A DNA stretch of 64,000 bases from Chloroflexota bacterium (GTDB lineage: Bacteria > Chloroflexota > Dehalococcoidia > E44-bin15), in the NCBI GenBank assembly GCA_034189655.1, contig JAXHUE010000003.1, positions 35,969 through 99,968 of the forward strand. The letters are read 5' to 3'. The position numbers were made by a program, and so were the translations under genes. This document shows, piece by piece, positions 3,034-12,087 of the stretch. The notes under the pieces are model-generated. The model had not been told where the DNA came from. It did not search any database and saw nothing but the letters and a program-made list of their open reading frames with translations. Every line of letters begins with the position of its first letter. Within the stretch, counting starts at the first letter, position 1.

Positions 3034-3216
3034 GTTATATCCTCCGTATCTATGATAGCAGACCGCTCCTCTACGAGCAACACACAGGGCGAGCCGGGCG
3101 CGGCATGTGCCTCGTGCAACGAGCGAGCGGCCGGGGCAGGCCCCTGGCGCGCCCCCTTACAGAGGTGGCGGATTGCCGCGTCCAGTGGCCTATGCTATAC
3201 TCGTGGCGGAGGCCCA

Positions 3217-4426
3217 GATGCCCATCGACCTGGTGAGGCTGGCGTTGCAGGTAGAGGGGCTCGCCGCCGAGCTCAAGGCAGGGGAGCGGAAGGCAGGGGA
3301 GCGCCTGGAGAGCGCCGTCGCCGCGCTCTGGGCCCAGGCCGACGCACTCGAGCAGTTTCGCGCCCGGCTCGCCGCGAGCCGTACTAGCTGGCTGGTGGCC
3401 GGCCTCGTCGACGGCCTGGGCGGGCGGGTGTCGCCGCCCCCCTGTCCCGGCGAGTTCACCGTCGTTGCCACCGATGGCTCCCACATCGATGTTGACCGTC
3501 ACAGCTCGGTGAGGTGCTGCCTGATTAACATCGGGAGCGCCGTGCTCCGCTACGGTGAGAGCCCTGGGGCCGAGCTCGTGGCCGTGCCCCAGCTCCTCTT
3601 CGGCGATGAGCTTATCATCGCCGACCCCTCCGCCCCCGGGGGTGGCGAGCGCGTCGAGGGGGCGCTCCTGGGGCTTGTGCGCGGCGTGGCCGAGTGCGAC
3701 GCGCTCGCCGCCCTCCTCGAGGGGCAGCCCGTAGAGCGGCCCGTGCTGGGCCTCATCGACGGCTCCCTCATCCTGTGGGGCCTGGCGGGGCGAGACTTCG
3801 AGGAGCAGAAGAGGTTCGTGAGGGAGGAGCTCCTCGACCGCCGTTACCTGGACGCCCTCGAGCGCATGAGGGTGCGCAGCGGGCGCGGGCCCTGTGTCCC
3901 CGCCAGCTACATAAGCTACCCGCGGAGCGCCGACGTAGTGAATGCGCTGCGCGTAGGCCTGTGCCCCCATGATGTCGCCGACTGCGACCGCTACTGCGCC
4001 GGGAACAGGGAGCGGGGGTGCGATGCCGTGTCCGGCGTGTGCGATGCCGACCTCTTCGCGGTGCTCCTCATGCCTGGCCAGAGGTCGGAGGCCTTCGTGA
4101 GCGGCTCCCGCTTCATGCAGCGGCACTATGGAGAGCACCAGATATGCTTCTTCTACTTGAAGCTGGAGGAGGAGGTGGCCCGGGTGGAGGTGCCGCGCTG
4201 GGTGGTGGATGGGGGGCTCCTGGACCTGGTGCACTGCCTGGTCCTCGACCAGTGCCGCCGCGGGCTGGGCTACCCGGTGGCGCTCCAGGAGGCGCACGAG
4301 CAGGCCGTGGTCACCGCCGCCTGTCGCGAGCAGTTCTGGGGGCTCATGGAGGGCGTCCTTGCCGAGGGCGGCGTGGCGCTGGGGGGCTCGGCCAAGCGCA
4401 TGAGCAAGCGCACGCGCTGGGTGTAA
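3217..4426 (+). CDS. nurA: NurA-family nuclease (DNA end-resection 5'-3' exo/endonuclease, RNase H-like fold)
   Basis: Two DGS motifs (VVATDGSHIDV and GLIDGSLILWG) at spacing characteristic of NurA domain catalytic Asp motifs. ~400 aa. The ATG at 3217 is preceded by GGCGGAGG, so the ORF-track start at 3107 is probably too early. First gene of an operon that ends in a HerA-like ATPase. Confidence 0.6.
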
Positions 4427-4516
4427 GAGCAGAGAGGTTCTGCACCGGGGCCAGGCCCCGGCGCAGCGCGTCTGTTTGAGTGTATAAGTATTAAAGTGAG
4501 GCGTGGGAGAGAGAGC

Positions 4517-5104
4517 GTGCCCACCAGGATAGGCGAGGTCATCGAGGCATCCACTGCGGAGTTCGTCGCCCAGTGCTACGAGCTGCACCGTCCGCCCCCC
4601 CTGGGCAGCCTGGTGCGCACCCGCGAGGGGGAGGTGGAGGTCTACGGCGTGGTGAGCCATGCCCAGACCCAGGGCATCGAGCCGGGGCGGCGCCCCATCG
4701 CCAGGGGCCGTGAAGAGGCCGTCGAGGAGGACATCTATCGCGCAAGCCCGCAGCTTGCCCGGCTGCTGCGCACCGATTTCAGCGCCCTCGTGGTGGGCCA
4801 CCGCGACGGCGAGCGCATCAGGCACTACCTGCCCCCGCGGCCGGCCATGCTCCACGGGTTCGTCCATGTCTGTGAGCGGGCGGAGGTCGCCGAGTTCAGC
4901 CAGTCCCTGGACTTCTTGAGCATCCTGGTCGGCGCCTGCGGGCAGGGGAGTGGCGATGAGCTGGTGGCCGCCGCGGTGCGCCAGGCGGCGGCGGCGCACG
5001 GCGACCCCCGCTCCTTCCTGGTGCGTGCCGGCAAGGAGCTCGCCGTGCTCCTGGGCGGCGACAGCCAGCGCCTGGGCATTATCTTGAGGAGGATAAAGGG
5101 GTGA
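4517..5104 (+). CDS. Hypothetical protein with HAS-barrel-like N-terminus (no ATPase domain), operonic between nurA and herA
   Basis: GTG at 4517 is preceded by GGGAGAGAGAG. N-terminus RIGEVIEASTAEFVAQCYELHRPPPLGSLVRT..EVEVYGVVSHAQT resembles the N-terminal HAS barrel of HerA-type proteins. The stop overlaps the herA GTG start (GTGA), suggesting translational coupling. Confidence 0.5.
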   Translation: MPTRIGEVIEASTAEFVAQCYELHRPPPLGSLVRTREGEVEVYGVVSHAQTQGIEPGRRPIARGREEAVEEDIYRASPQLARLLRTDFSALVVGHRDGERIRHYLPPRPAMLHGFVHVCERAEVAEFSQSLDFLSILVGACGQGSGDELVAAAVRQAAAAHGDPRSFLVRAGKELAVLLGGDSQRLGIILRRIKG

Positions 5105-6744
5105 GCCAGGGGAGTGATTTACATAATGAGTCACAGCGGCGGCTCGGCGTCGTCGTCGAGGGCTCGCTCACCAGGGGCGTCGAGGTCAGGCTCGACGGCG
5201 GCGTCTCCATCGAGGACATCGCCGTGGGCCGCTACGTCACCATCGAGGGGGAGAGGCGCCGCTTCTTCGGCATGATCACCGATGCCGAGCTGGGCACCAT
5301 CGACCCGCGGCTGCTCACCATGCCCCCGGATATATCAGACCCCTTCATCGCCGAGGTGCTCGCCGGCACCGGCACCTACGGCCGCATCCACGTCCTGCCC
5401 GTGCTCACCATCGGCGGGGACGCCATGGGCCTCCTGGAGGGGCCGCAGCCGGTGAAGACCGTGCCCGCCCACTTCTCCGCGGTGCGCGAGGCCAGCGAGC
5501 GCGACGTGGAGCAGGTCTTCGGCGGGGTGGAGGAGCGCCAGTTCTACATCGGCACCCCGCTCGACATGGAGACCAAGGTGCGGCTCGACCCCGGGGAGCT
5601 GGTGGTGCGCTCGAGCGGCGTCTTCGGCAAGAGCGGCACCGGCAAGACCTTCCTCGCCCGGCTGCTGCTCATCGGCATCATCCAGGAGGGCGCCGCGGTG
5701 AACCTGGTCTTCGACATGCACAGCGAGTACGGCTGGGAGGGGAGCAGCGAGGAGGGGCGAAAGGTGAAGGCACTCAAGCAACTCTTCCCCTCCAAGGTCG
5801 CCGTGTTCGCCCTCGACGAGGAAGGGGCGCGGCGGCGTAATGTCTCCACCGACTTCGTGGTGAAGATCGGCTATGACGAGGTGGAGCCCGAGGACATCGC
5901 CATGCTCCAGGAGACACTGGGCCTGAGCGAGGCCGCGGTGCAGGCCACGTACCGCCTGGCGCGGCACTACGGCGAGCGCCGCTGGCTGGAGTGCTTCCTC
6001 GACGTGGAGGGCAGGGAGGACATCGCCGCGCTGGCGCAGGGCCTGGGGGAGCACGAGGCCACCCTGGCCGCGCTGCGGCGCCGCCTCGATGTGCTGCGCC
6101 GTCTCTCGTTCCTGGTGCCCCACGCCGCAGACAACGCCATCCGTCACATACTGGAGTACCTCGACCGCGGGATGAACGTCGTCCTGGAGTTCGGGCGCTT
6201 CACCGACATCGTCGCCTACATACTGGTGGCCAACCTGCTCACCAGGCGCATCCACGAGCGCTGGCGCGAGCGCACGGAGCGGGCCATTGGCGGGGACGGG
6301 GACAAGCCGCCGCCCCTGGTCATCACCATCGAGGAGGCGCACAAGTTCCTGAGCCGGGAGCTTGCCGGGCACACCATATTCGGCACCATCGCCCGCGAGA
6401 TGAGGAAGTACAACTGCACCCTCCTGGTCATCGACCAGCGCCCCAGCGGCATCGACGAGGAGGTGATGAGCCAGATCGGCACCAAGATCACCTGCCTCCT
6501 CGACAACGAGCGCGACATAGAGAGCGTGCTCACCGGCGTCTCGGGCAAGGGGGAGCTCAGGGCGGTGCTGGCCAAGCTCGATTCACGGCAGCAGGCCCTC
6601 ATCTTCGGCCACGCCGTCCCCATGCCGGTGGTGGTGCGCACCAGGGAGTACGGCTCGGCGCAGTCCTACAGCGAGCTGGGCATCCGCGATGCCCTGGAGC
6701 GGCGCCGGCAGGCCGAGGAGGAAGGCAGAGACCTGTGGGGGTAG
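5101..6744 (+). CDS. herA: HerA-like hexameric ATPase/helicase (DUF87/FtsK-HerA superfamily)
   Basis: Walker A FGKSGTGKTFLARLL. Walker B/DEAH-like LVITIEEAHKFL. Conserved C-terminal LLVIDQRPSGIDEEVMSQIGTKI. N-terminal HAS-barrel-like region (LGVVVEGSLTRGVEVRL..VGRYVTIEGERRRFFGMI). Adjacent to the NurA-like gene. Confidence 0.75.
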   Translation: MSQGSDLHNESQRRLGVVVEGSLTRGVEVRLDGGVSIEDIAVGRYVTIEGERRRFFGMITDAELGTIDPRLLTMPPDISDPFIAEVLAGTGTYGRIHVLPVLTIGGDAMGLLEGPQPVKTVPAHFSAVREASERDVEQVFGGVEERQFYIGTPLDMETKVRLDPGELVVRSSGVFGKSGTGKTFLARLLLIGIIQEGAAVNLVFDMHSEYGWEGSSEEGRKVKALKQLFPSKVAVFALDEEGARRRNVSTDFVVKIGYDEVEPEDIAMLQETLGLSEAAVQATYRLARHYGERRWLECFLDVEGREDIAALAQGLGEHEATLAALRRRLDVLRRLSFLVPHAADNAIRHILEYLDRGMNVVLEFGRFTDIVAYILVANLLTRRIHERWRERTERAIGGDGDKPPPLVITIEEAHKFLSRELAGHTIFGTIAREMRKYNCTLLVIDQRPSGIDEEVMSQIGTKITCLLDNERDIESVLTGVSGKGELRAVLAKLDSRQQALIFGHAVPMPVVVRTREYGSAQSYSELGIRDALERRRQAEEEGRDLWG

Positions 6745-6778: not shown

Positions 6779-8251
6779 ATGGTGCCCACCACTGGCCCGA
6801 TGACACGCCGTCCCCTCGTCGAGGAGATCGATGCCCCCTCCGCACTGGAGGCCTTCTCCCTGATCAGGGGGCGTCCCCACAGCTTCTTCCTCGATAGCGG
6901 CATGGGCCGCGAGCGCCTGGGCCGCTACTCGTTCATCGGCAGCGACCCCTTCCTGGTGCTCAAGAGCTACGGCCGCGATGTCTGCCTGGTCGAGGGCTGC
7001 AACGAGACCAGGATGAGCGCCGACCCCTTCGACGTGCTGCGGGAGGTACTGTCCCGGTACGCCCTCGACCCCGGCCCCGCGCCCATCCCCTTCACCGGCG
7101 GCGCCGTGGGCTACCTCGGCTACGACCTGTGCCACTTCGTCGAGCGCCTGCCCCAGACCGCCGCCGACGACCTGGGGCTCCCCGAGCTCTACCTGGCCTT
7201 CTACGACGGTGTCATCGGCTTCGACCACCTGGAGGGGCGGTGCTACGTCGCCGCAAGCGGCCTTCCCTGTGAGGAAGAGGAGCGGCGGCTGCGCCGCGCC
7301 CGGGAGCGCCTCGACGAGCTCAAGGACATCGTGGAGCGGGCCCCGCGGCAGGGAGAGGAGCGCCCCATGGAGCACGGCCAGCCCGCGGCGACCCCTGTGT
7401 CCAGCGTCGTGCCACAGTCAAACTTCACCCACGAGGGGTATGTGCGCGCGGTCGCGGCGGCGCGGGAGTACATCTGTGCCGGCGACATCTTCCAGGTGAA
7501 CCTGTCGCAGCGGTTCCAGGCCCCGCTCGACGTCGCCCCCTTCGAGCTGTACCGGCGCCTGCGCGCCATCAACCCGGCGCCGTTTGCCAGCTACTTAAAC
7601 CTCGACGGGGTGACCATCGTCAGCGCCTCGCCGGAGCGGTTCCTCCGCACGAGCGGCGACCTGGTGGAGACCCGCCCCATCAAGGGGACGAGGCCCCGGG
7701 GGCGCACGCCGGCCCGGGACCAGGCACTGGCCTGGGAGCTGGCGCACAGCGTCAAAGACCGCGCCGAGAACGTGATGATAGTAGACCTGGAGCGCAACGA
7801 CCTGGGGCGCGTGTGCCGCTATGGGACGGTGCGGGTGAGCGAGCTGTGTGCCCTGGAGCGCTATGCCACGGTGTTCCACCTCACCTCCACGGTGGAGGGC
7901 AGGCTGCGCCACGACCGAGACCGCGTAGACCTGCTCAAGGCCACCTTCCCTGGGGGCTCGATCACCGGGGCCCCCAAGGTGCGTGCCATGGAGATCATAG
8001 ACGAGCTGGAGCCCACGCGGCGGGGGGTCTACACCGGCTCCATCGGGTATGTGGGCTTCGATGGAGAGATGGACTTGAACATCGTCATTCGCACCTTCGT
8101 GGTAGCGGGGGGAAAGGCCTACTTCCAGGTAGGAGGGGGCATCGTGTACGATTCCGACCCCGAGGCCGAGTACGTGGAGACGCTGGACAAGGCGAGGGCC
8201 CTCGTCGAGTCGCTTGGGCCCCAGCCGCTCCCGGCACCAGAGGAGAGGTGA
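6779..8251 (+). CDS. pabB: Aminodeoxychorismate synthase component I (chorismate-binding enzyme, PabB/TrpE family)
   Basis: Chorismate-binding domain motifs (NPAPFASYLNL, SASPERFLR, ETRPIKGTRPRG, FPGGSITGAPK, RGVYTGSIGY). Assigned to pab rather than trp because the partner amidotransferase and a class IV aminotransferase (ADC lyase) lie downstream. Confidence 0.75.
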   Translation: MVPTTGPMTRRPLVEEIDAPSALEAFSLIRGRPHSFFLDSGMGRERLGRYSFIGSDPFLVLKSYGRDVCLVEGCNETRMSADPFDVLREVLSRYALDPGPAPIPFTGGAVGYLGYDLCHFVERLPQTAADDLGLPELYLAFYDGVIGFDHLEGRCYVAASGLPCEEEERRLRRARERLDELKDIVERAPRQGEERPMEHGQPAATPVSSVVPQSNFTHEGYVRAVAAAREYICAGDIFQVNLSQRFQAPLDVAPFELYRRLRAINPAPFASYLNLDGVTIVSASPERFLRTSGDLVETRPIKGTRPRGRTPARDQALAWELAHSVKDRAENVMIVDLERNDLGRVCRYGTVRVSELCALERYATVFHLTSTVEGRLRHDRDRVDLLKATFPGGSITGAPKVRAMEIIDELEPTRRGVYTGSIGYVGFDGEMDLNIVIRTFVVAGGKAYFQVGGGIVYDSDPEAEYVETLDKARALVESLGPQPLPAPEER

Positions 8252-8441: not shown

Positions 8442-11321
8442 ATGAGAAGTAAATATCCTGGGCTCACCAGGCCGACGGCGGTGCTCATAGCGCTGGCACT
8501 GATCGCCACACTTCTCGCCATCGTTATCCCGACGACCATTGGCTCGGCGGTCAACGAGGAGTGGGCCAACGCCGTCGTCGAGGAGGCGACTGAGAGGGTG
8601 GTCAACCCCGATAACGCCCTGGGCCCCAACGATGGCACGTGCGCCACCATGAGGCGCAGCGCCGAGCTTACCCTGGACATGGGAGTCGGCGAGGAGGCGC
8701 TGGACGGCCCGGGCAACGACCTCAAAGTCTATTCCCAGGGCGGTGACTACGAGGTCTTCGTGTGGGACGGCTTCACCTGGCAGTCGCTGGGTATTGGCGC
8801 CGGCACTCAGGAGTTCGACCTGGCCGATGCCGGCGTGGCCCAGTCGCGGTACGTGAGGATTGAGAATCGCACCAAGGGTGATATATGCATCGATGCCGTA
8901 GAGGTGCTGGGCGGCGAGCCCAAGCCCAGGATAACCGCTCCTGGCTACGAGGCCGACCTCACCGGCAATACCCAGATAGTGGCCGAGGACGAGGATGATG
9001 GCAACATCACCGATTGCTGGTTCTACTACTGGTACGACCTCGACCAGGACTGCGTGGCCGATGAGGGCGAGGACACCTGGCACCTCATAGGCCACGATAG
9101 CGTTGGCGGCAATTGGAGCGTGTGGTGGGACACCGGCAACTACAGCGACTGCTGCTACATCCTGAAGGCCGTGATGGAGAACTCCAGGGGCATCCAGGGT
9201 GACAGCTACGAGCAGGGCTTCCCCCACAACGTGCAGCTCACCAACCACGACCCCCAGCCCGAGATAACCGCCCCTGATGACCAGACCCCCTGCGATGCCG
9301 CCCCGGTGAGTGGCAACGTGACCCTCACCGCGGTGGACAACAGCTTTGAGCAGGGGGCAGACGTCACAGAGTGCACGTTCGAGTACTACTACGATGAGAA
9401 CATGAACTGCGACGACGATGACGGCAACCAGTGGACCGACATCGCCGGCATGGGCGCTAGCGGTGTGGTCAAGGGTAACGGTGGCGAGGGCTACGAGTTC
9501 ACCTACGACTGGGACACCACCCAGATGCCAGACTGCTGCTACCTCCTCCGTGTCACCATGGAGGACAAGCACGGGCGTGCCAACACCACGGACCATATCA
9601 ACATCGCCCTCTCCAACCACGACCCGCAGCCCGTGTTCTTGAACCCCGGCGAGGACGACACCGTGCAGGGCACCATCCTGCTGGAGGTAGAGGACGCCAG
9701 CCTTGACCAGGGCAGCGACGTGATATGCACCACCTGGGAGTACTGCTACGCCACCGACGAAAGCCAGTGCAGCGGTGATGACTGGAACCTGATACTGCAG
9801 GACTGCGACCCCGTCGGTGACACCTGGAGGCTGTGGTGGGACACCAACCAGGTACAGGACTGCTTCTACACCATCCGCGCCACCATGGAGGATGAGCACG
9901 GCCGTATCGGGGTGAGCTACCTCCACGTCGGCGTGGGCAACGACCCGCCGGTGGTCGAGATAGAGCAGCCCTACAACAACGACCTCCTCTGTGAGGACAA
10001 CCCGGTGAGTGGCAACGTCACCGTCAGGGCCAAGGACACGCAGCAGGCCACCGACATCGAGGCCGCCACCTTCCGCTACTACTATGACACAAACCAGGAC
10101 TGCGTGGCCAACGACGGCAACTCGTGGGTGCAGTTCGGCTACGATGGGACGAAGGAGATGGTGGGCGGCAACGCCACCTTCGAGGTGAACTGGGACACGA
10201 GCCAGCTCAACGACTGCTGCTACATCGTCCGCGTCTACATATCCGACCTCCACGCGCTGAACGGCTATGACACCCTCTGCGTGGCCCTCACCAACCACAA
10301 CCCGGTGCCCGAGATCACCCAGCCCGAGGGCAACACCACCATAAGCGGCACCCAGAGGATCATCGCCAAGGACACCGGCTTTGACCTGGGCAACGACATC
10401 AACCTGCCTGGCCACGGCAACGTGACCTTTGAGTATGCCACCGCAGACCAGAACTGCCAGCAGGTGGGCCAGTGGACAGACATGGGGGCGACCGTCACCC
10501 AGGTCGGCAGCCCGCCCGACCGCACCTGGTACGTGGACTGGGACACCACCCAGGTGGAGGACTGCTTCCACCTCATCAGGGTGACCCTGGAGGACAAGCA
10601 CGGCAGAACTGGCACCACCACCATCTGCGTGGGCGTGGCCAACAACCCGCCCCAGCCGCGGATGACGGCCCCGCCTGATGCCACTCCCTGCACCGCGGGC
10701 GAGGTGAACGGGAACATCGACCTGGTGGCGGTGGACGACAAGGCCAACAGCACCGTGCAGAGCTGCGTCTTCGAGATCTGGGACGACTTCAACCAGAACT
10801 GCACCGCCGACGAGGGGAACACCACCTGGGTCGCCATCGGCTCGGGCACGCTCTCTGCGGGCAACTGGACCCTCGATTGGGACACCACTGATGTCCCCGA
10901 CGAGTGCTACCTGGTGCGGGCCAACATGACCGACATCCACGGTCTGGGCAACGTCTCCACCCACATCAACCTGTACGTGAACAACCTGCGCCCGGCGCCG
11001 TACTTCTGGTATCCGTACGACAGGTCGGACTATCCTGTGGGCGACCCCGTCAACCTCTACGTGTACGACAAGACCGGGGCCACCGATATCCACGACGCCG
11101 ATGTGTACTTCGAGTGGTGGGACCCGGTAGCGAGGGAGTGGGTCTACATAGGCACCGGCACCTCTTACTATGAGAGCTCCATGGGCATGTGGATGTGGTA
11201 CAACTACAACCTCTACTACCCCGACCGCGACTGGATAGCGGTGAGGGTGACCATGACCGACAAGGGGGCCACACCACAGTCCGGCGACGACATCGTCCAG
11301 ATTTACCGAGTGCAAGAGTAG
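8442..11321 (+). CDS. Large exported Cys-rich tandem-repeat protein (959 aa): N-terminal signal/anchor, ~125-aa beta-sandwich-like domain, then seven ~105-120-aa repeats of an unrecognised domain
   Basis: N-terminus MRSKYPGLTRPTAVLIALALIATLLAIVIP is a signal peptide or type II anchor. Seven repeats (aa ~160-270, 271-393, 394-500, 501-620, 621-735, 736-849, 850-959) share three conserved blocks: PQP(E/V)IT.P at the start, C.F.YYYD.N.(D/N)C..D(D/E)GN.W in the middle, and W.(L/V).WDT.....DCCY..R..MED.HGR at the end. The protein is acidic and N/T/D/W/Y-rich with conserved Cys pairs. The opposite-strand 997-aa ORF is a V/H/G-rich shadow. Confidence 0.7.
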   Translation: MRSKYPGLTRPTAVLIALALIATLLAIVIPTTIGSAVNEEWANAVVEEATERVVNPDNALGPNDGTCATMRRSAELTLDMGVGEEALDGPGNDLKVYSQGGDYEVFVWDGFTWQSLGIGAGTQEFDLADAGVAQSRYVRIENRTKGDICIDAVEVLGGEPKPRITAPGYEADLTGNTQIVAEDEDDGNITDCWFYYWYDLDQDCVADEGEDTWHLIGHDSVGGNWSVWWDTGNYSDCCYILKAVMENSRGIQGDSYEQGFPHNVQLTNHDPQPEITAPDDQTPCDAAPVSGNVTLTAVDNSFEQGADVTECTFEYYYDENMNCDDDDGNQWTDIAGMGASGVVKGNGGEGYEFTYDWDTTQMPDCCYLLRVTMEDKHGRANTTDHINIALSNHDPQPVFLNPGEDDTVQGTILLEVEDASLDQGSDVICTTWEYCYATDESQCSGDDWNLILQDCDPVGDTWRLWWDTNQVQDCFYTIRATMEDEHGRIGVSYLHVGVGNDPPVVEIEQPYNNDLLCEDNPVSGNVTVRAKDTQQATDIEAATFRYYYDTNQDCVANDGNSWVQFGYDGTKEMVGGNATFEVNWDTSQLNDCCYIVRVYISDLHALNGYDTLCVALTNHNPVPEITQPEGNTTISGTQRIIAKDTGFDLGNDINLPGHGNVTFEYATADQNCQQVGQWTDMGATVTQVGSPPDRTWYVDWDTTQVEDCFHLIRVTLEDKHGRTGTTTICVGVANNPPQPRMTAPPDATPCTAGEVNGNIDLVAVDDKANSTVQSCVFEIWDDFNQNCTADEGNTTWVAIGSGTLSAGNWTLDWDTTDVPDECYLVRANMTDIHGLGNVSTHINLYVNNLRPAPYFWYPYDRSDYPVGDPVNLYVYDKTGATDIHDADVYFEWWDPVAREWVYIGTGTSYYESSMGMWMWYNYNLYYPDRDWIAVRVTMTDKGATPQSGDDIVQIYRVQE
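8919..11318 (+). repeat. In-frame coding tandem repeat array (7 diverged units of ~320-370 bp)
   Basis: DNA-level reflection of the seven protein repeats. Units are diverged (protein identity roughly 30-50%), so this is not a recent satellite expansion. Confidence 0.6.
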
Positions 11322-11389: not shown

Positions 11390-11484
11390 GGGGTGGTGTG
11401 CCCCTCCCGTCCCAGCCTTGCCCCCTCCCGCCGTAGCTGCTACAATCTGTGTGGGGGGAGTGCCTTTATAAAGGGGAGGGGGCC

Positions 11485-12087
11485 TTGGTCATCATCATCG
11501 ATAACTACGACTCCTTCTGCTACAACCTGGCCCAGTACATCGGGGAGCTGGGCTGGGAGCCCATGGTGTGCCGCAACGACCAGCTCTCACTGGTGGAGAT
11601 CGCGGCCCTGGCCCCGTCCCACATCGTGATCTCTCCCGGGCCGGGCACCCCGCTCGATGCCGGCATCTCCAACGCAGTGATACGCCGCTTTGCCGGCCAC
11701 ATCCCCATACTGGGGGTGTGCCTGGGACACCAGTGCATCGGCCACTGCTTCGGCGGGCACATAGTGCGCACCGTGCCGGTGCACGGCAAGTCCTCCCTCA
11801 TCTACCACGACGGCAAGACGCTGTACCGCGGCCTGGCCAACCCCTTCGAGGCCGGGCGCTACCACTCCCTGGCCGTCGCCCCGTGGGGCCTGCCCGCGGA
11901 GCTTGAGCTCTCGGCGCAGACCGAGACCGGGGAGGTCATGGGGGTGCGCCACCGCCAGTTCGTGGTCGAGGGCATCCAGTTCCACCCCGAGTCCATCCTC
12001 ACCGCCTGTGGCCACGATGTGCTGCGTGCCTTCCTGGGCATAGAGCATCCGCGGTGGCAGGCCGCCCTGGGGGGGCCCCATGGCTAG
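11485..12087 (+). CDS. pabA: Aminodeoxychorismate/anthranilate synthase component II (class I glutamine amidotransferase)
   Basis: LVIIIDNYDSFCYNLAQY N-terminus and GVCLGHQCIG catalytic Cys motif, with HPES near the C-terminus. Likely TTG start at 11485, 4 nt after GGGGAGGGGG; the ORF-track start at 11449 adds 12 non-homologous residues. Confidence 0.8.
   Translation: MVIIIDNYDSFCYNLAQYIGELGWEPMVCRNDQLSLVEIAALAPSHIVISPGPGTPLDAGISNAVIRRFAGHIPILGVCLGHQCIGHCFGGHIVRTVPVHGKSSLIYHDGKTLYRGLANPFEAGRYHSLAVAPWGLPAELELSAQTETGEVMGVRHRQFVVEGIQFHPESILTACGHDVLRAFLGIEHPRWQAALGGPHG

What the first reader, a model, noticed from the sequence alone, without database searches (positions are those of the whole stretch)
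4517..5104. Middle gene resembles a free-standing HerA HAS-barrel and is translationally coupled to herA
Its N-terminus (IGEVIEASTAEFVAQ...LGSLV...EVYGVVS) mirrors the HAS-barrel N-terminus of HerA, which in the next gene reads LGVVVEGSLTRGVEV...GRYVTIEG...FFGMI, but it lacks any P-loop. Its stop overlaps the herA GTG start (GTGA), implying stoichiometric co-expression. A duplicated, ATPase-less HAS barrel could cap or gate the HerA ring, or bridge it to NurA.
Basis: inference. Interest (0 to 1): 0.6.

Follow-up and report, generated by a model that had tools for sequence, protein, structure and literature searches.

The report
Free-standing HAS-barrel partner of NurA–HerA
The small gene between nurA and herA encodes a stand-alone copy of the barrel domain that HerA uses to dock its nuclease, plus a helical domain with no match among solved structures. 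It is conserved in nurA–herA operons of several bacterial phyla, so it is probably an undescribed third subunit of this DNA-end-resection machine.

Summary
Window 4517-5104 (+) is a real 195-aa gene with no P-loop, and its TGA stop overlaps the herA GTG start (GTGA, 5101-5104).

- **Fold.** An AlphaFold2 model (pLDDT 96) shows an N-terminal beta-barrel (res 4-118) and a five-helix C-terminal domain. All 50 listed Foldseek PDB hits are HerA chains (best E 7e-7). The Pfam HAS-barrel model scores below threshold for this protein (17.6 bits, cutoff 25.2). It matches 31 of 71 family members and passes the cutoff in several. The helical domain has no structural relative in the PDB.
- **Family.** It is large: 943 clusters at 50% identity, nearly all about 190-210 aa. 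Members are named only "hypothetical" or "HAS-barrel domain-containing protein".
- **Gene context.** In 82 of 82 Dehalococcoidia loci, herA follows it directly, and 62 of 82 have the NTGA overlap. In Bacillota, a Gemmatimonadota MAG and unclassified metagenome contigs the order is nurA–X–herA, often followed by mre11–rad50. In a HerA-centred sample, all 10 loci with nurA also had this gene, while 55 solitary herA loci had neither.

I read it as a dedicated accessory subunit acting at the HAS-collar/NurA interface. This is inferred, not shown. I found no paper describing it. It is a new variant of a known system and of moderate interest.

The parts
3173..3201 (+). Sigma-70-like promoter match (TTGCCG-17-TATACT with TG) just upstream of the probable nurA start
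   Evidence: This is a consensus match only. 2 sites were found against 0.3 expected in shuffles.
3215..4426 (+). nurA (NurA-domain nuclease). The mechanical ORF starts at GTG 3107, but the likely start is ATG 3215.
   Evidence: Pfam PF09376 E 7e-21. Homologues align only from residue about 35-38 of the 3107 ORF and are about 399 aa long.
4505..4509 (+). Shine-Dalgarno-like GGGAG, 7 nt before the GTG start of the middle gene
   Evidence: Read directly from the sequence.
4517..5104 (+). Middle gene: a 195-aa free-standing HAS-barrel protein (coordinates include the stop codon)
   Evidence: ORF and translation. 3222 homologues in the 5.8-billion-protein set. 943 clusters at 50% identity. AF2 model pLDDT 96.2.
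4526..4870 (+). HAS-barrel domain (residues 4-118). Strands at 4-11, 15-20, 32-37, 40-53, 84-97, 100-102 and 115-118.
   Evidence: AF2 secondary structure. Foldseek PDB hits listed are all HerA. Pfam PF09378 aligns residues 5-62 to model positions 1-57.
4676..4765 (+). Most conserved segment of the family (residues 54-83), an insertion in the barrel. It is a loop [DE]-P-x-R-[RK]-P-x-A-x-G, then an acidic patch (70-72), then helices with invariant P78 and L83-L84-R-T86.
   Evidence: Column statistics on the 71-sequence alignment A2: R58 99%, P78 100%, T86 96%. Secondary structure.
4871..5101 (+). C-terminal five-helix domain (residues 119-195) with no recognisable structural relative
   Evidence: Modelled alone at pLDDT 95.4. 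Best Foldseek PDB hit is E 2.2, probability 0.14.
5086..5092 (+). GAGGAGG Shine-Dalgarno for herA, embedded in the L-R-R-I codons at the C-terminus of the middle gene, 8 nt before the herA start
   Evidence: Sequence. An SD-like motif lies in the last 18 nt in 73 of 82 loci. Junction strings are listed.
5101..5104 (+). GTGA overlap: herA start GTG (5101-5103) and middle-gene stop TGA (5102-5104)
   Evidence: Sequence. An NTGA overlap is conserved in 62 of 82 non-redundant loci: 34 ATGA, 27 GTGA and 1 TTGA.
5101..6744 (+). herA (HerA-type ring ATPase/translocase with its own N-terminal HAS barrel)
   Evidence: Pfam DUF87 1.5e-26 and HAS-barrel 5.3e-9. NCBIfam HerA models score 2e-22 to 5e-20, all far below their equivalog cutoffs. 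Nearest solved relatives by sequence are 8wiv, 9x1l and 4d2i.

Best explanation
The middle gene encodes a dedicated accessory subunit of a bacterial NurA-HerA DNA-end-resection machine. In some lineages this machine is extended by Mre11-Rad50.

Shown:
- It is a real, strongly conserved 195-aa protein.
- It consists of a free-standing HAS barrel, the fold HerA uses at its N-terminus, followed by a small five-helix domain with no match among solved structures. It has no ATPase module.
- Its gene sits between nurA and herA across several phyla, with overlapping or abutting stop and start codons on one or both sides.
- The herA ribosome-binding site is embedded in its last codons.
- It co-occurs with nurA. 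HerA genes of the same clade that lack nurA nearby also lack it.

Inferred:
- In solved NurA-HerA complexes the ring of six HerA HAS barrels is the platform on which the NurA dimer docks.
- HAS barrels associate side by side into rings. The protein therefore most likely assembles at that interface, either as its own barrel ring stacked on the HerA collar or as peripheral copies bound to it.
- There it would act as an adaptor or regulator that couples the NurA nuclease to the HerA motor.
- The conserved Arg-rich loop and acidic patch (residues 54-86) and the helical domain would provide the partner contacts.
- Translational coupling would keep its supply matched to HerA.
For: Fold:
- AF2 model pLDDT 96.2, pTM 0.90.
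- All 50 listed Foldseek PDB hits are HerA chains, including Sulfolobus 4d2i, T. kodakarensis HerA-NurA 9x1l/9x1m, D. radiodurans 7wrw/7f6d, and SIR2-HerA and DUF4297-HerA complexes.
- Pfam HAS-barrel matches 31 of 71 family members and scores above the gathering cutoff in P0300, P0298 and P0312.

Real gene under selection:
- 943 clusters at 50% identity.
- Median pairwise identity is 61%, against 59% for NurA and 70% for HerA in the same 45 loci.

Linkage:
- herA lies directly downstream in 82 of 82 loci, and 62 of 82 have the NTGA overlap.
- nurA lies upstream in 51 of 55 loci with enough flank.
- nurA-X-herA-mre11-rad50 occurs in L089/L090, L091/L092, L095 and L097, which encodes the Desulfofalx alkaliphila protein.
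- nurA-X-herA occurs in L093 and in a Gemmatimonadota MAG, L098.
- Junction gaps are -4 to +26 nt (nurA to X) and -4 to +64 nt (X to herA).
- Either junction can be broken while the other is kept. In Dehalococcoidia, inserts lie between nurA and X. L154 and L143 have inserts between X and herA. L085 and L088 have nurA-X without an adjacent herA.

Co-occurrence in 80 HerA-centred loci: 10 have nurA and all 10 have X between nurA and herA. 55 have neither, and none has nurA without X.

Literature: the HerA HAS-barrel ring is the NurA docking surface (PMC3326311, PMC9960219).

Housekeeping context, not mobile:
- The flanks are a conserved CDF transporter, a deacetylase and chorismate-binding/GATase genes.
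- There are no relatives in IMG/VR.
- There are no PADLOC hits for X or NurA.
Against: - No physical interaction was tested or modelled.
- D. radiodurans and archaeal NurA-HerA assemble and work as two-component 2:6 complexes (PMC9960219). A third subunit is therefore not intrinsically needed.
- HerA here keeps its own complete HAS barrel, so nothing is obviously missing that X must supply.
- Correlations of pairwise identities do not discriminate between partners: r is 0.92-0.94 for all three pairs.
- The helical domain gives no functional clue.
- In 19 of 82 loci the X/herA overlap is replaced by gaps of up to about 640 nt, some holding inserted elements or ORFs. Strict translational coupling is therefore dispensable.
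- In some genomes nurA-X lies without an adjacent herA.
Confidence: 0.55

Rival explanations
1. NurA-directed mimic or platform. X presents a HerA-like HAS surface to NurA. It would act either as a decoy that keeps the nuclease inactive until HerA takes over, or as a passive ring that lets NurA work on DNA without the HerA motor.
For: - nurA-X pairs with overlapping or near-abutting genes exist without herA nearby (L085/L086, L088).
- nurA-X stays together when herA is displaced by 1.7-2.1 kb (L154, L143).
- X is found wherever nurA is found in the HerA-centred sample, 10 of 10.
- NurA binds HAS barrels in solved complexes (PMC9960219).
Against: - In the largest group, Dehalococcoidia, the tight and often overlapping link is to herA. 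nurA is separated by 30-5765 nt of variable genes.
- Whether a herA gene exists elsewhere in the nurA-X-only genomes is unknown.
- No binding data exist.
Confidence: 0.2
2. HerA-only assembly factor or cap. X binds HerA's barrel collar, or HerA protomers, to set the oligomeric state or gate the channel, with no direct contact to NurA.
For: - 82 of 82 loci show adjacency, and 62 of 82 show NTGA coupling to herA with a shared SD.
- HAS barrels are known ring-forming modules.
- A paper on HerA oligomer formation and HerA-NurA assembly exists (PMC5715905, abstract seen).
Against: HerA genes of the same clade (51-63% identity) occur alone in 55 loci without X. This HerA type therefore does not generally need X. 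X tracks nurA, not herA.
Confidence: 0.1
3. Independent function. X is a small nucleic-acid-binding or other barrel protein that merely shares an operon with repair genes and does not join the NurA-HerA complex.
For: - Small beta-barrels with basic loops often bind nucleic acids, and X has a conserved R58-R59 loop.
- The C-terminal domain has no known relatives.
Against: - The best structural matches are specifically HerA N-terminal domains, not OB or other barrels.
- The position between nurA and herA is conserved across phyla, with overlapping reading frames.
- The median pI of about 5.9 is not that of a typical DNA-binding protein.
Confidence: 0.08
4. Component of a HerA-based anti-phage defence system, analogous to SIR2-HerA or DUF4297-HerA, with NurA as the effector.
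For: - HerA scores against PADLOC HerA models (best 1.6e-27).
- Structural hits include defence HerAs.
- One relative has a type II restriction-modification methylase gene downstream of herA (L001).
Against: - There is no PADLOC hit for X or NurA.
- The chromosomal neighbourhood of housekeeping genes is conserved and syntenic.
- The operon is linked to mre11-rad50 in several lineages.
- There are no viral relatives.
- HerA is closer by sequence to archaeal repair HerAs than the defence label implies.
Confidence: 0.04

Closest known systems
N-terminal HAS-barrel domain of HerA (e.g. Sulfolobus solfataricus 4D2I, Thermococcus kodakarensis 9X1L, Deinococcus radiodurans 7WRW)
   Same: Same beta-barrel fold. 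All 50 listed Foldseek PDB hits are HerA chains, at E 7e-7 to 2e-4. Same Pfam family, PF09378. In HerA this domain forms the six-membered collar that binds NurA (PMC9960219, PMC3326311).
   Different: Here the barrel is a separate polypeptide with no RecA-like ATPase or Walker motifs. It carries a family-specific conserved insertion (residues 54-83) and a C-terminal five-helix domain with no match in HerA or elsewhere in the PDB. Sequence identity to HerA barrels is only 8-20%.
Two-component NurA-HerA end-resection complexes (archaeal; Deinococcus radiodurans DR0836/DR0837)
   Same: The same two core genes flank the middle gene. Relatives show the same operon logic and the same link to mre11-rad50.
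   Different: The characterised systems are described as NurA2:HerA6 with no third protein (PMC9960219). The window HerA does not hit D. radiodurans HerA at E 1e-3 and is nearer to archaeal and defence HerAs. This clade has an extra conserved gene between nurA and herA.
RefSeq/UniRef 'HAS-barrel domain-containing protein' of Desulfofalx alkaliphila (P0300), and the protein of Desulfohalotomaculum tongense (P0298; 'hypothetical' in NCBI, 'HAS-barrel domain-cont...' in UniRef)
   Same: Same family as the window protein. Both were retrieved with family member P0182 at 74-75% identity, and P0182 is about 42% identical to the window protein. Same length. In the P0300 locus the position is the same, between nurA and herA.
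   Different: These are automatic domain-level names only. No function, partner or operon role is attached to them, and most members, including all close relatives of the window protein, are 'hypothetical protein'.
N-terminal beta-barrel crown of F1-ATPase alpha/beta subunits (the 'AS' in HAS)
   Same: From established knowledge (Iyer et al. 2004, cited in PMC3326311). It is a homologous barrel whose copies pack side by side into a six-membered crown, including hetero-oligomeric alpha3beta3 packing. This is a precedent for barrel-barrel ring assembly.
   Different: No F1 chain appears among the 50 listed Foldseek hits, and Pfam matches no ATP synthase family. In F1 the barrels are always fused to the nucleotide-binding domain.

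Membership tests
HAS-barrel domain (Pfam PF09378) | The window protein itself scores at or above the Pfam gathering cutoff (25.2 bits) | tested here: not met
   17.6 bits, E 0.0041; residues 5-62 align to model positions 1-57 of 90.
HAS-barrel domain (Pfam PF09378) | Orthologous family members score at or above the gathering cutoff over the whole model | tested here: met
   P0300 30.4 bits, P0312 28.1 and P0298 26.2, covering model positions 1-87/89 of 90. 31 of 71 diverse members match at E<=0.01, best 2e-9, and no other Pfam family is hit.
HAS-barrel domain (Pfam PF09378) | Beta-barrel fold superimposable on the N-terminal domain of HerA | tested here: met
HAS-barrel domain (Pfam PF09378) | Usual architecture: the barrel is fused N-terminally to an ASCE P-loop ATPase domain | tested here: not met
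   The protein is 195 aa with no Walker A and no ATPase family hit. Nearly all listed family representatives are 190-210 aa.
HerA/FtsK-type ATPase (PF01935 DUF87) | RecA-like ATPase core with Walker A/B motifs | tested here: not met
   No DUF87 or AAA hit in the middle protein. These features are present in the next gene, 5101-6744.
NurA-HerA DNA end-resection system | NurA-domain nuclease gene and HerA ATPase gene in one co-oriented cluster | tested here: met
   PF09376 at 3107/3215-4426. DUF87 plus HAS-barrel at 5101-6744. No terminator-like site between the genes.
NurA-HerA DNA end-resection system | Linkage to mre11-rad50 (archaeal-type operon) | tested here: not met
   There is no mre11 or rad50 homologue in the 64-kb window by tblastn. 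The linkage is present in the operons of distant family members L089, L091, L095 and L097.
NurA-HerA DNA end-resection system | Physical NurA2:HerA6 complex with coupled nuclease and translocase activity, and participation of the middle protein | not testable with these tools
   This needs multimer modelling with interface scores, or biochemistry.
HerA-based anti-phage systems (SIR2-HerA, DUF4297-HerA) | Dedicated effector gene (SIR2, DUF4297 etc.) next to herA, and a defence-island context | tested here: not met
   PADLOC has no hit for NurA or the middle protein. HerA hits only generic HerA models. The neighbours are housekeeping genes. No relatives were found in viral contigs.

The most novel reading that the evidence does not exclude
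The protein forms its own six-membered HAS-barrel ring that stacks coaxially between the HerA hexamer and the NurA dimer. This would give a three-tier translocase-adaptor-nuclease machine, a subunit architecture not described for any HerA/FtsK-type motor. The helical domain and the conserved Arg/acidic insertion would set which nuclease, or which DNA end, the motor accepts. In genomes with nurA-X but no linked herA, the same ring would serve NurA as a motor-less DNA clamp.
Probability: 0.25. Interest if true: 0.7.

Novelty: new variant of a known kind. Interest (0 to 1): 0.55.

Why it matters
NurA-HerA is the archaeal-type end-resection machine. Its bacterial versions are barely studied, and every structural and biochemical model treats it as a two-protein complex.

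A conserved, translationally coupled third gene is present wherever nurA accompanies this HerA clade, including in cultured Bacillota. This suggests that many bacterial systems have an unrecognised subunit sitting at the very surface where motor and nuclease meet. That would bear on three open questions: how nuclease activity is licensed, how the oligomeric state of HerA is set, and how HAS-barrel collars recruit partners more generally, including in SIR2-HerA and DUF4297-HerA defence complexes.

The idea can be tested directly by co-expression, pull-down and cryo-EM. It would also give a name and a context to a family of about 1000 sequence clusters now labelled 'hypothetical'.

Tried and rejected
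- **Pairwise BLASTP of the middle protein against the neighbouring HerA.** Nothing significant.
- **hhalign of the family against a HerA profile built from the fetched loci.** Weak, E 0.016, and the HerA profile had low diversity.
- **Profile search against PDB sequences.** Only chance-level hits.
- **NCBIfam and PADLOC.** No family for the middle protein.
- **BFVD viral structures and IMG/VR contigs.** No relatives.
- **C-terminal domain modelled alone and searched.** No significant match, so it is not the HerA helix bundle.
- **Possible Rosetta-stone fusion P0222 (NurA C-terminus plus middle protein).** The NurA part degenerates into low-complexity sequence before the junction. This is most likely a frameshift or gene-call artefact, so I rejected it as evidence.
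- **Mirror-tree-style correlation of pairwise identities.** All three pairs give r 0.92-0.94, which is uninformative.
- **Co-modelling with HerA.** I built a linker-fused, paired middle+HerA sequence set for 73 loci but did not submit it. The tool returns neither PAE nor coordinates, so an interface could not have been judged. The second structure job went to the C-terminal domain instead.
- **Literature.** Searches for a solo HAS barrel or a third NurA-HerA gene found nothing. Iyer et al. 2004 could not be read.
- **Defence-system reading.** Considered and rejected on genomic context.

Full report
**1. What is in the window**

The ORF list and raw sequence show three co-oriented genes.
- nurA: the mechanical ORF is 3107-4426, but the likely start is ATG 3215. 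Homologues align only from residue about 37 and are about 399 aa long. A promoter-like site lies at 3173-3201.
- The middle gene, 4517-5104.
- herA, 5101-6744.

Pfam confirms NurA (PF09376, E 7e-21) and HerA (DUF87 1.5e-26 plus its own HAS barrel, 5.3e-9).

The middle gene starts at GTG 4517, preceded by GGGAG at 4505-4509. Alignment with 29 close homologues supports this start rather than the upstream GTG at 4496. Its TGA (5102-5104) overlaps the herA GTG (5101-5103). The herA Shine-Dalgarno GAGGAGG (5086-5092) is encoded by the L-R-R-I codons at the end of the middle gene. The protein has no Walker A motif and no ATPase family hit. No terminator-like site separates the three genes.

**2. Is the HAS-barrel resemblance more than chance?**

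At the pairwise level it is not. BLASTP between the two window proteins is not significant, and hhalign against a shallow local HerA profile gives only E 0.016.

At the family and fold level it is.
- The window protein hits Pfam HAS-barrel below threshold, at 17.6 bits against a cutoff of 25.2.
- In a 71-member alignment spanning 34-74% identity, 31 members hit that model and no other, best E 2e-9.
- Orthologues from Desulfofalx alkaliphila, Desulfohalotomaculum tongense and a Gemmatimonadota MAG pass the cutoff over the whole model.
- An AlphaFold2 model built on the diverse alignment is very confident, with pLDDT 96.2 and pTM 0.90. It has a beta-barrel (residues 4-118) interrupted by a loop-helix insertion (54-83), then five helices (121-194).
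- Foldseek against the PDB returns only HerA chains among the 50 listed hits. These include Sulfolobus 4d2i at E 7e-7, T. kodakarensis HerA-NurA, D. radiodurans HerA, SIR2-HerA and DUF4297-HerA.
- The C-terminal domain, modelled alone (pLDDT 95.4), has no significant PDB match: best E 2.2. The HerA similarity therefore resides in the barrel, and the helical domain has no match among solved structures.

**3. The family**

The protein has 3222 word-sharing homologues in the 5.8-billion-protein set and 943 clusters at 50% identity. Nearly all are 190-210 aa and stand alone. Source names are 'hypothetical protein' or, for a few, the automatic 'HAS-barrel domain-containing protein'.

Family-wide conserved positions are:
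- G6-E7-V8, P27, G30, V33 and T51;
- the loop [DE]55-P-x-R58-[RK]59...G64;
- an acidic patch at 70-72;
- invariant P78, then L83-L84-R-T86 and G94;
- L105-P-x-x-P109, H113 and C119;
- D147-E148, R155, G172-K173 and R185-L186.

The insertion 54-86 is the most conserved part of the protein.

**4. Genomic association**

*Chloroflexota sample centred on the middle gene.* I analysed 82 non-redundant loci: those returned by the GTDB species-genome scan (best 80 of 335 hits, all but two titled Dehalococcoidia or Chloroflexota), those fetched, and the window itself.
- herA lies immediately downstream on the same strand in 82 of 82.
- 62 have the 4-nt NTGA overlap (34 ATGA, 27 GTGA, 1 TTGA) and one has a 1-nt overlap.
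- 73 of 82 have an SD-like motif in the last codons.
- The 19 exceptions have an 8-nt overlap, small gaps, or insertions of MITE-like hairpin repeats or small ORFs.
- nurA lies upstream in 51 of 55 loci with at least 2.5 kb of flank. The distance varies from 30 to 5765 nt, with unrelated genes in between.

*Outside Chloroflexota.* The gene sits between nurA and herA with junction gaps of -4 to +26 nt and -4 to +64 nt.
- nurA-X-herA-mre11-rad50 occurs in L089/L090, L091/L092 (spore-former context), L095/L096 and L097, which encodes the Desulfofalx alkaliphila protein.
- nurA-X-herA occurs in L093/L094 and in a Gemmatimonadota MAG, L098.
- nurA-X without an adjacent herA occurs in L085/L086 and in L088, whose cluster includes MAGs labelled Deltaproteobacteria and 'bacterium HR37'.

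*Sample centred on HerA.* I took 80 metagenome loci 51-90% identical to the Gemmatimonadota HerA.
- 10 loci contain nurA, and all 10 have the middle gene between nurA and herA.
- None has nurA without it.
- 55 of 70 informative loci have a solitary herA, with neither nurA nor the middle gene within about 5 kb.
- In L154 and L143 the nurA-X unit, or X alone, is separated from herA by about 2 kb.

The gene therefore tracks nurA-linked HerA systems, not HerA as such. It stays attached to at least one of the two partners whenever the operon is broken.

**5. Context and exclusions**

- The window neighbourhood is housekeeping: a CDF transporter, a HemN-like radical SAM enzyme, a deacetylase, and chorismate-binding and GATase genes. 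It is syntenic with relatives.
- PADLOC recognises only generic HerA models and nothing for NurA or the middle protein.
- There are no relatives in IMG/VR or BFVD.
- No mre11 or rad50 lies in this window.
- The window HerA is nearer in sequence to archaeal and defence HerAs than to D. radiodurans HerA, which it does not hit at 1e-3.

Together with the mre11-rad50 linkage in other lineages, this points to DNA repair and end resection rather than defence.

**6. Mechanism**

What is shown is the fold, the conservation, the operon position, the coupling signals and the co-occurrence with nurA.

From the literature, the six HAS barrels of HerA form the collar on which the NurA dimer docks. In D. 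radiodurans this contact is between an acidic HerA motif and basic NurA motifs (PMC9960219; PMC3326311).

I infer that the middle protein is a dedicated accessory subunit acting at that interface. It would be either a second barrel ring stacked on the collar or peripheral copies bound to it, coupling or regulating NurA relative to HerA. I put this at about 0.55.

The main rival, at 0.2, is a NurA-directed mimic or platform. It is favoured by the nurA-X-only loci and disfavoured by the dominant X-herA coupling in Dehalococcoidia. A HerA-only assembly factor (0.1) fits the coupling, but solitary HerAs of the same clade lack X. An independent function (0.08) and a defence role (0.04) are unlikely.

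None of these was tested physically. Rate correlations among the three proteins were uninformative.

**7. Comparison with what is known, and novelty**

The barrel belongs to the HAS-barrel family by fold and, for orthologues, by Pfam score. The window protein itself falls short of the Pfam cutoff. It is not a HerA, because it has no ATPase.

The system is a NurA-HerA end-resection cluster with an extra conserved gene. Characterised NurA-HerA complexes, archaeal and from D. radiodurans, are described as two-component. I found no paper describing a free-standing HAS-barrel protein or a third NurA-HerA gene. Databases already give some members a domain-level name.

I classify it as a new variant of a known kind. 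Interest is moderate (0.55). It is not strange in principle, but it is a widespread, unstudied and directly testable candidate third subunit of a repair machine.

Noticed in passing
window 8442-11321 (+): A 959-aa ORF with an N-terminal hydrophobic segment and about eight internal repeats carrying a D-C-[CF]-Y ... ME[DN]xHG motif. It has no Pfam hit. It lies between the chorismate-binding gene (6779-8251) and its glutamine amidotransferase partner (11449-12087), which are adjacent in relative L004. It therefore looks like a lineage-specific insertion of an uncharacterised secreted or surface repeat protein.
   Followed up: partly
window 3107-3215: The longest nurA ORF starts at GTG 3107, but homologues align only from residue about 37. 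ATG 3215 gives a 403-aa protein like its relatives. A promoter-like site (3173-3201) sits just upstream, implying a very short leader.
   Followed up: partly
L039:3766-3930, L061:6585-6810, L066:6576-6800, L063:6582-7115, L083:6582-7225, L082:6576-7085: In a minority of Dehalococcoidia loci the otherwise overlapping junction between the middle gene and herA carries insertions. Three loci have hairpin-rich MITE-like repeats. Two have a GNAT-like ORF of about 150 aa, and one has an NfeD-like ORF; both labels are judged by eye, not scanned. In several cases the first codons after the old GTGA (V-I-Q-K) are retained.
   Followed up: partly
L111-L178 (for example L118, L123, L129, L146): HerA genes of the same clade (51-63% identical to the nurA-linked ones) occur as solitary genes in unrelated neighbourhoods, with no nurA and no middle gene within about 5 kb: 55 of 70 informative loci. 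Whether these genomes keep nurA-X elsewhere is unknown.
   Followed up: partly
L152:5001-7360: The HerA match in this locus spans about 2.36 kb for the same query residues that take about 1.6 kb elsewhere. This suggests a large insertion, possibly an intein, inside herA.
   Followed up: no
protein P0299 (Bacillota MAG orthologue): The precomputed Pfam label is PF26500.1, not PF09378. That accession is not in the local Pfam copy, where the protein hits only HAS-barrel at 22.6 bits. A newer Pfam release may already contain a dedicated family.
   Followed up: partly
L001:8246-11026: In one close relative, a 926-aa type IIG-like restriction-modification methyltransferase gene (N6_Mtase/MmeI_Mtase/Eco57I/TaqI_C) and a 274-aa ORF lie between herA and the chorismate-binding gene. 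Both are absent from the window.
   Followed up: no
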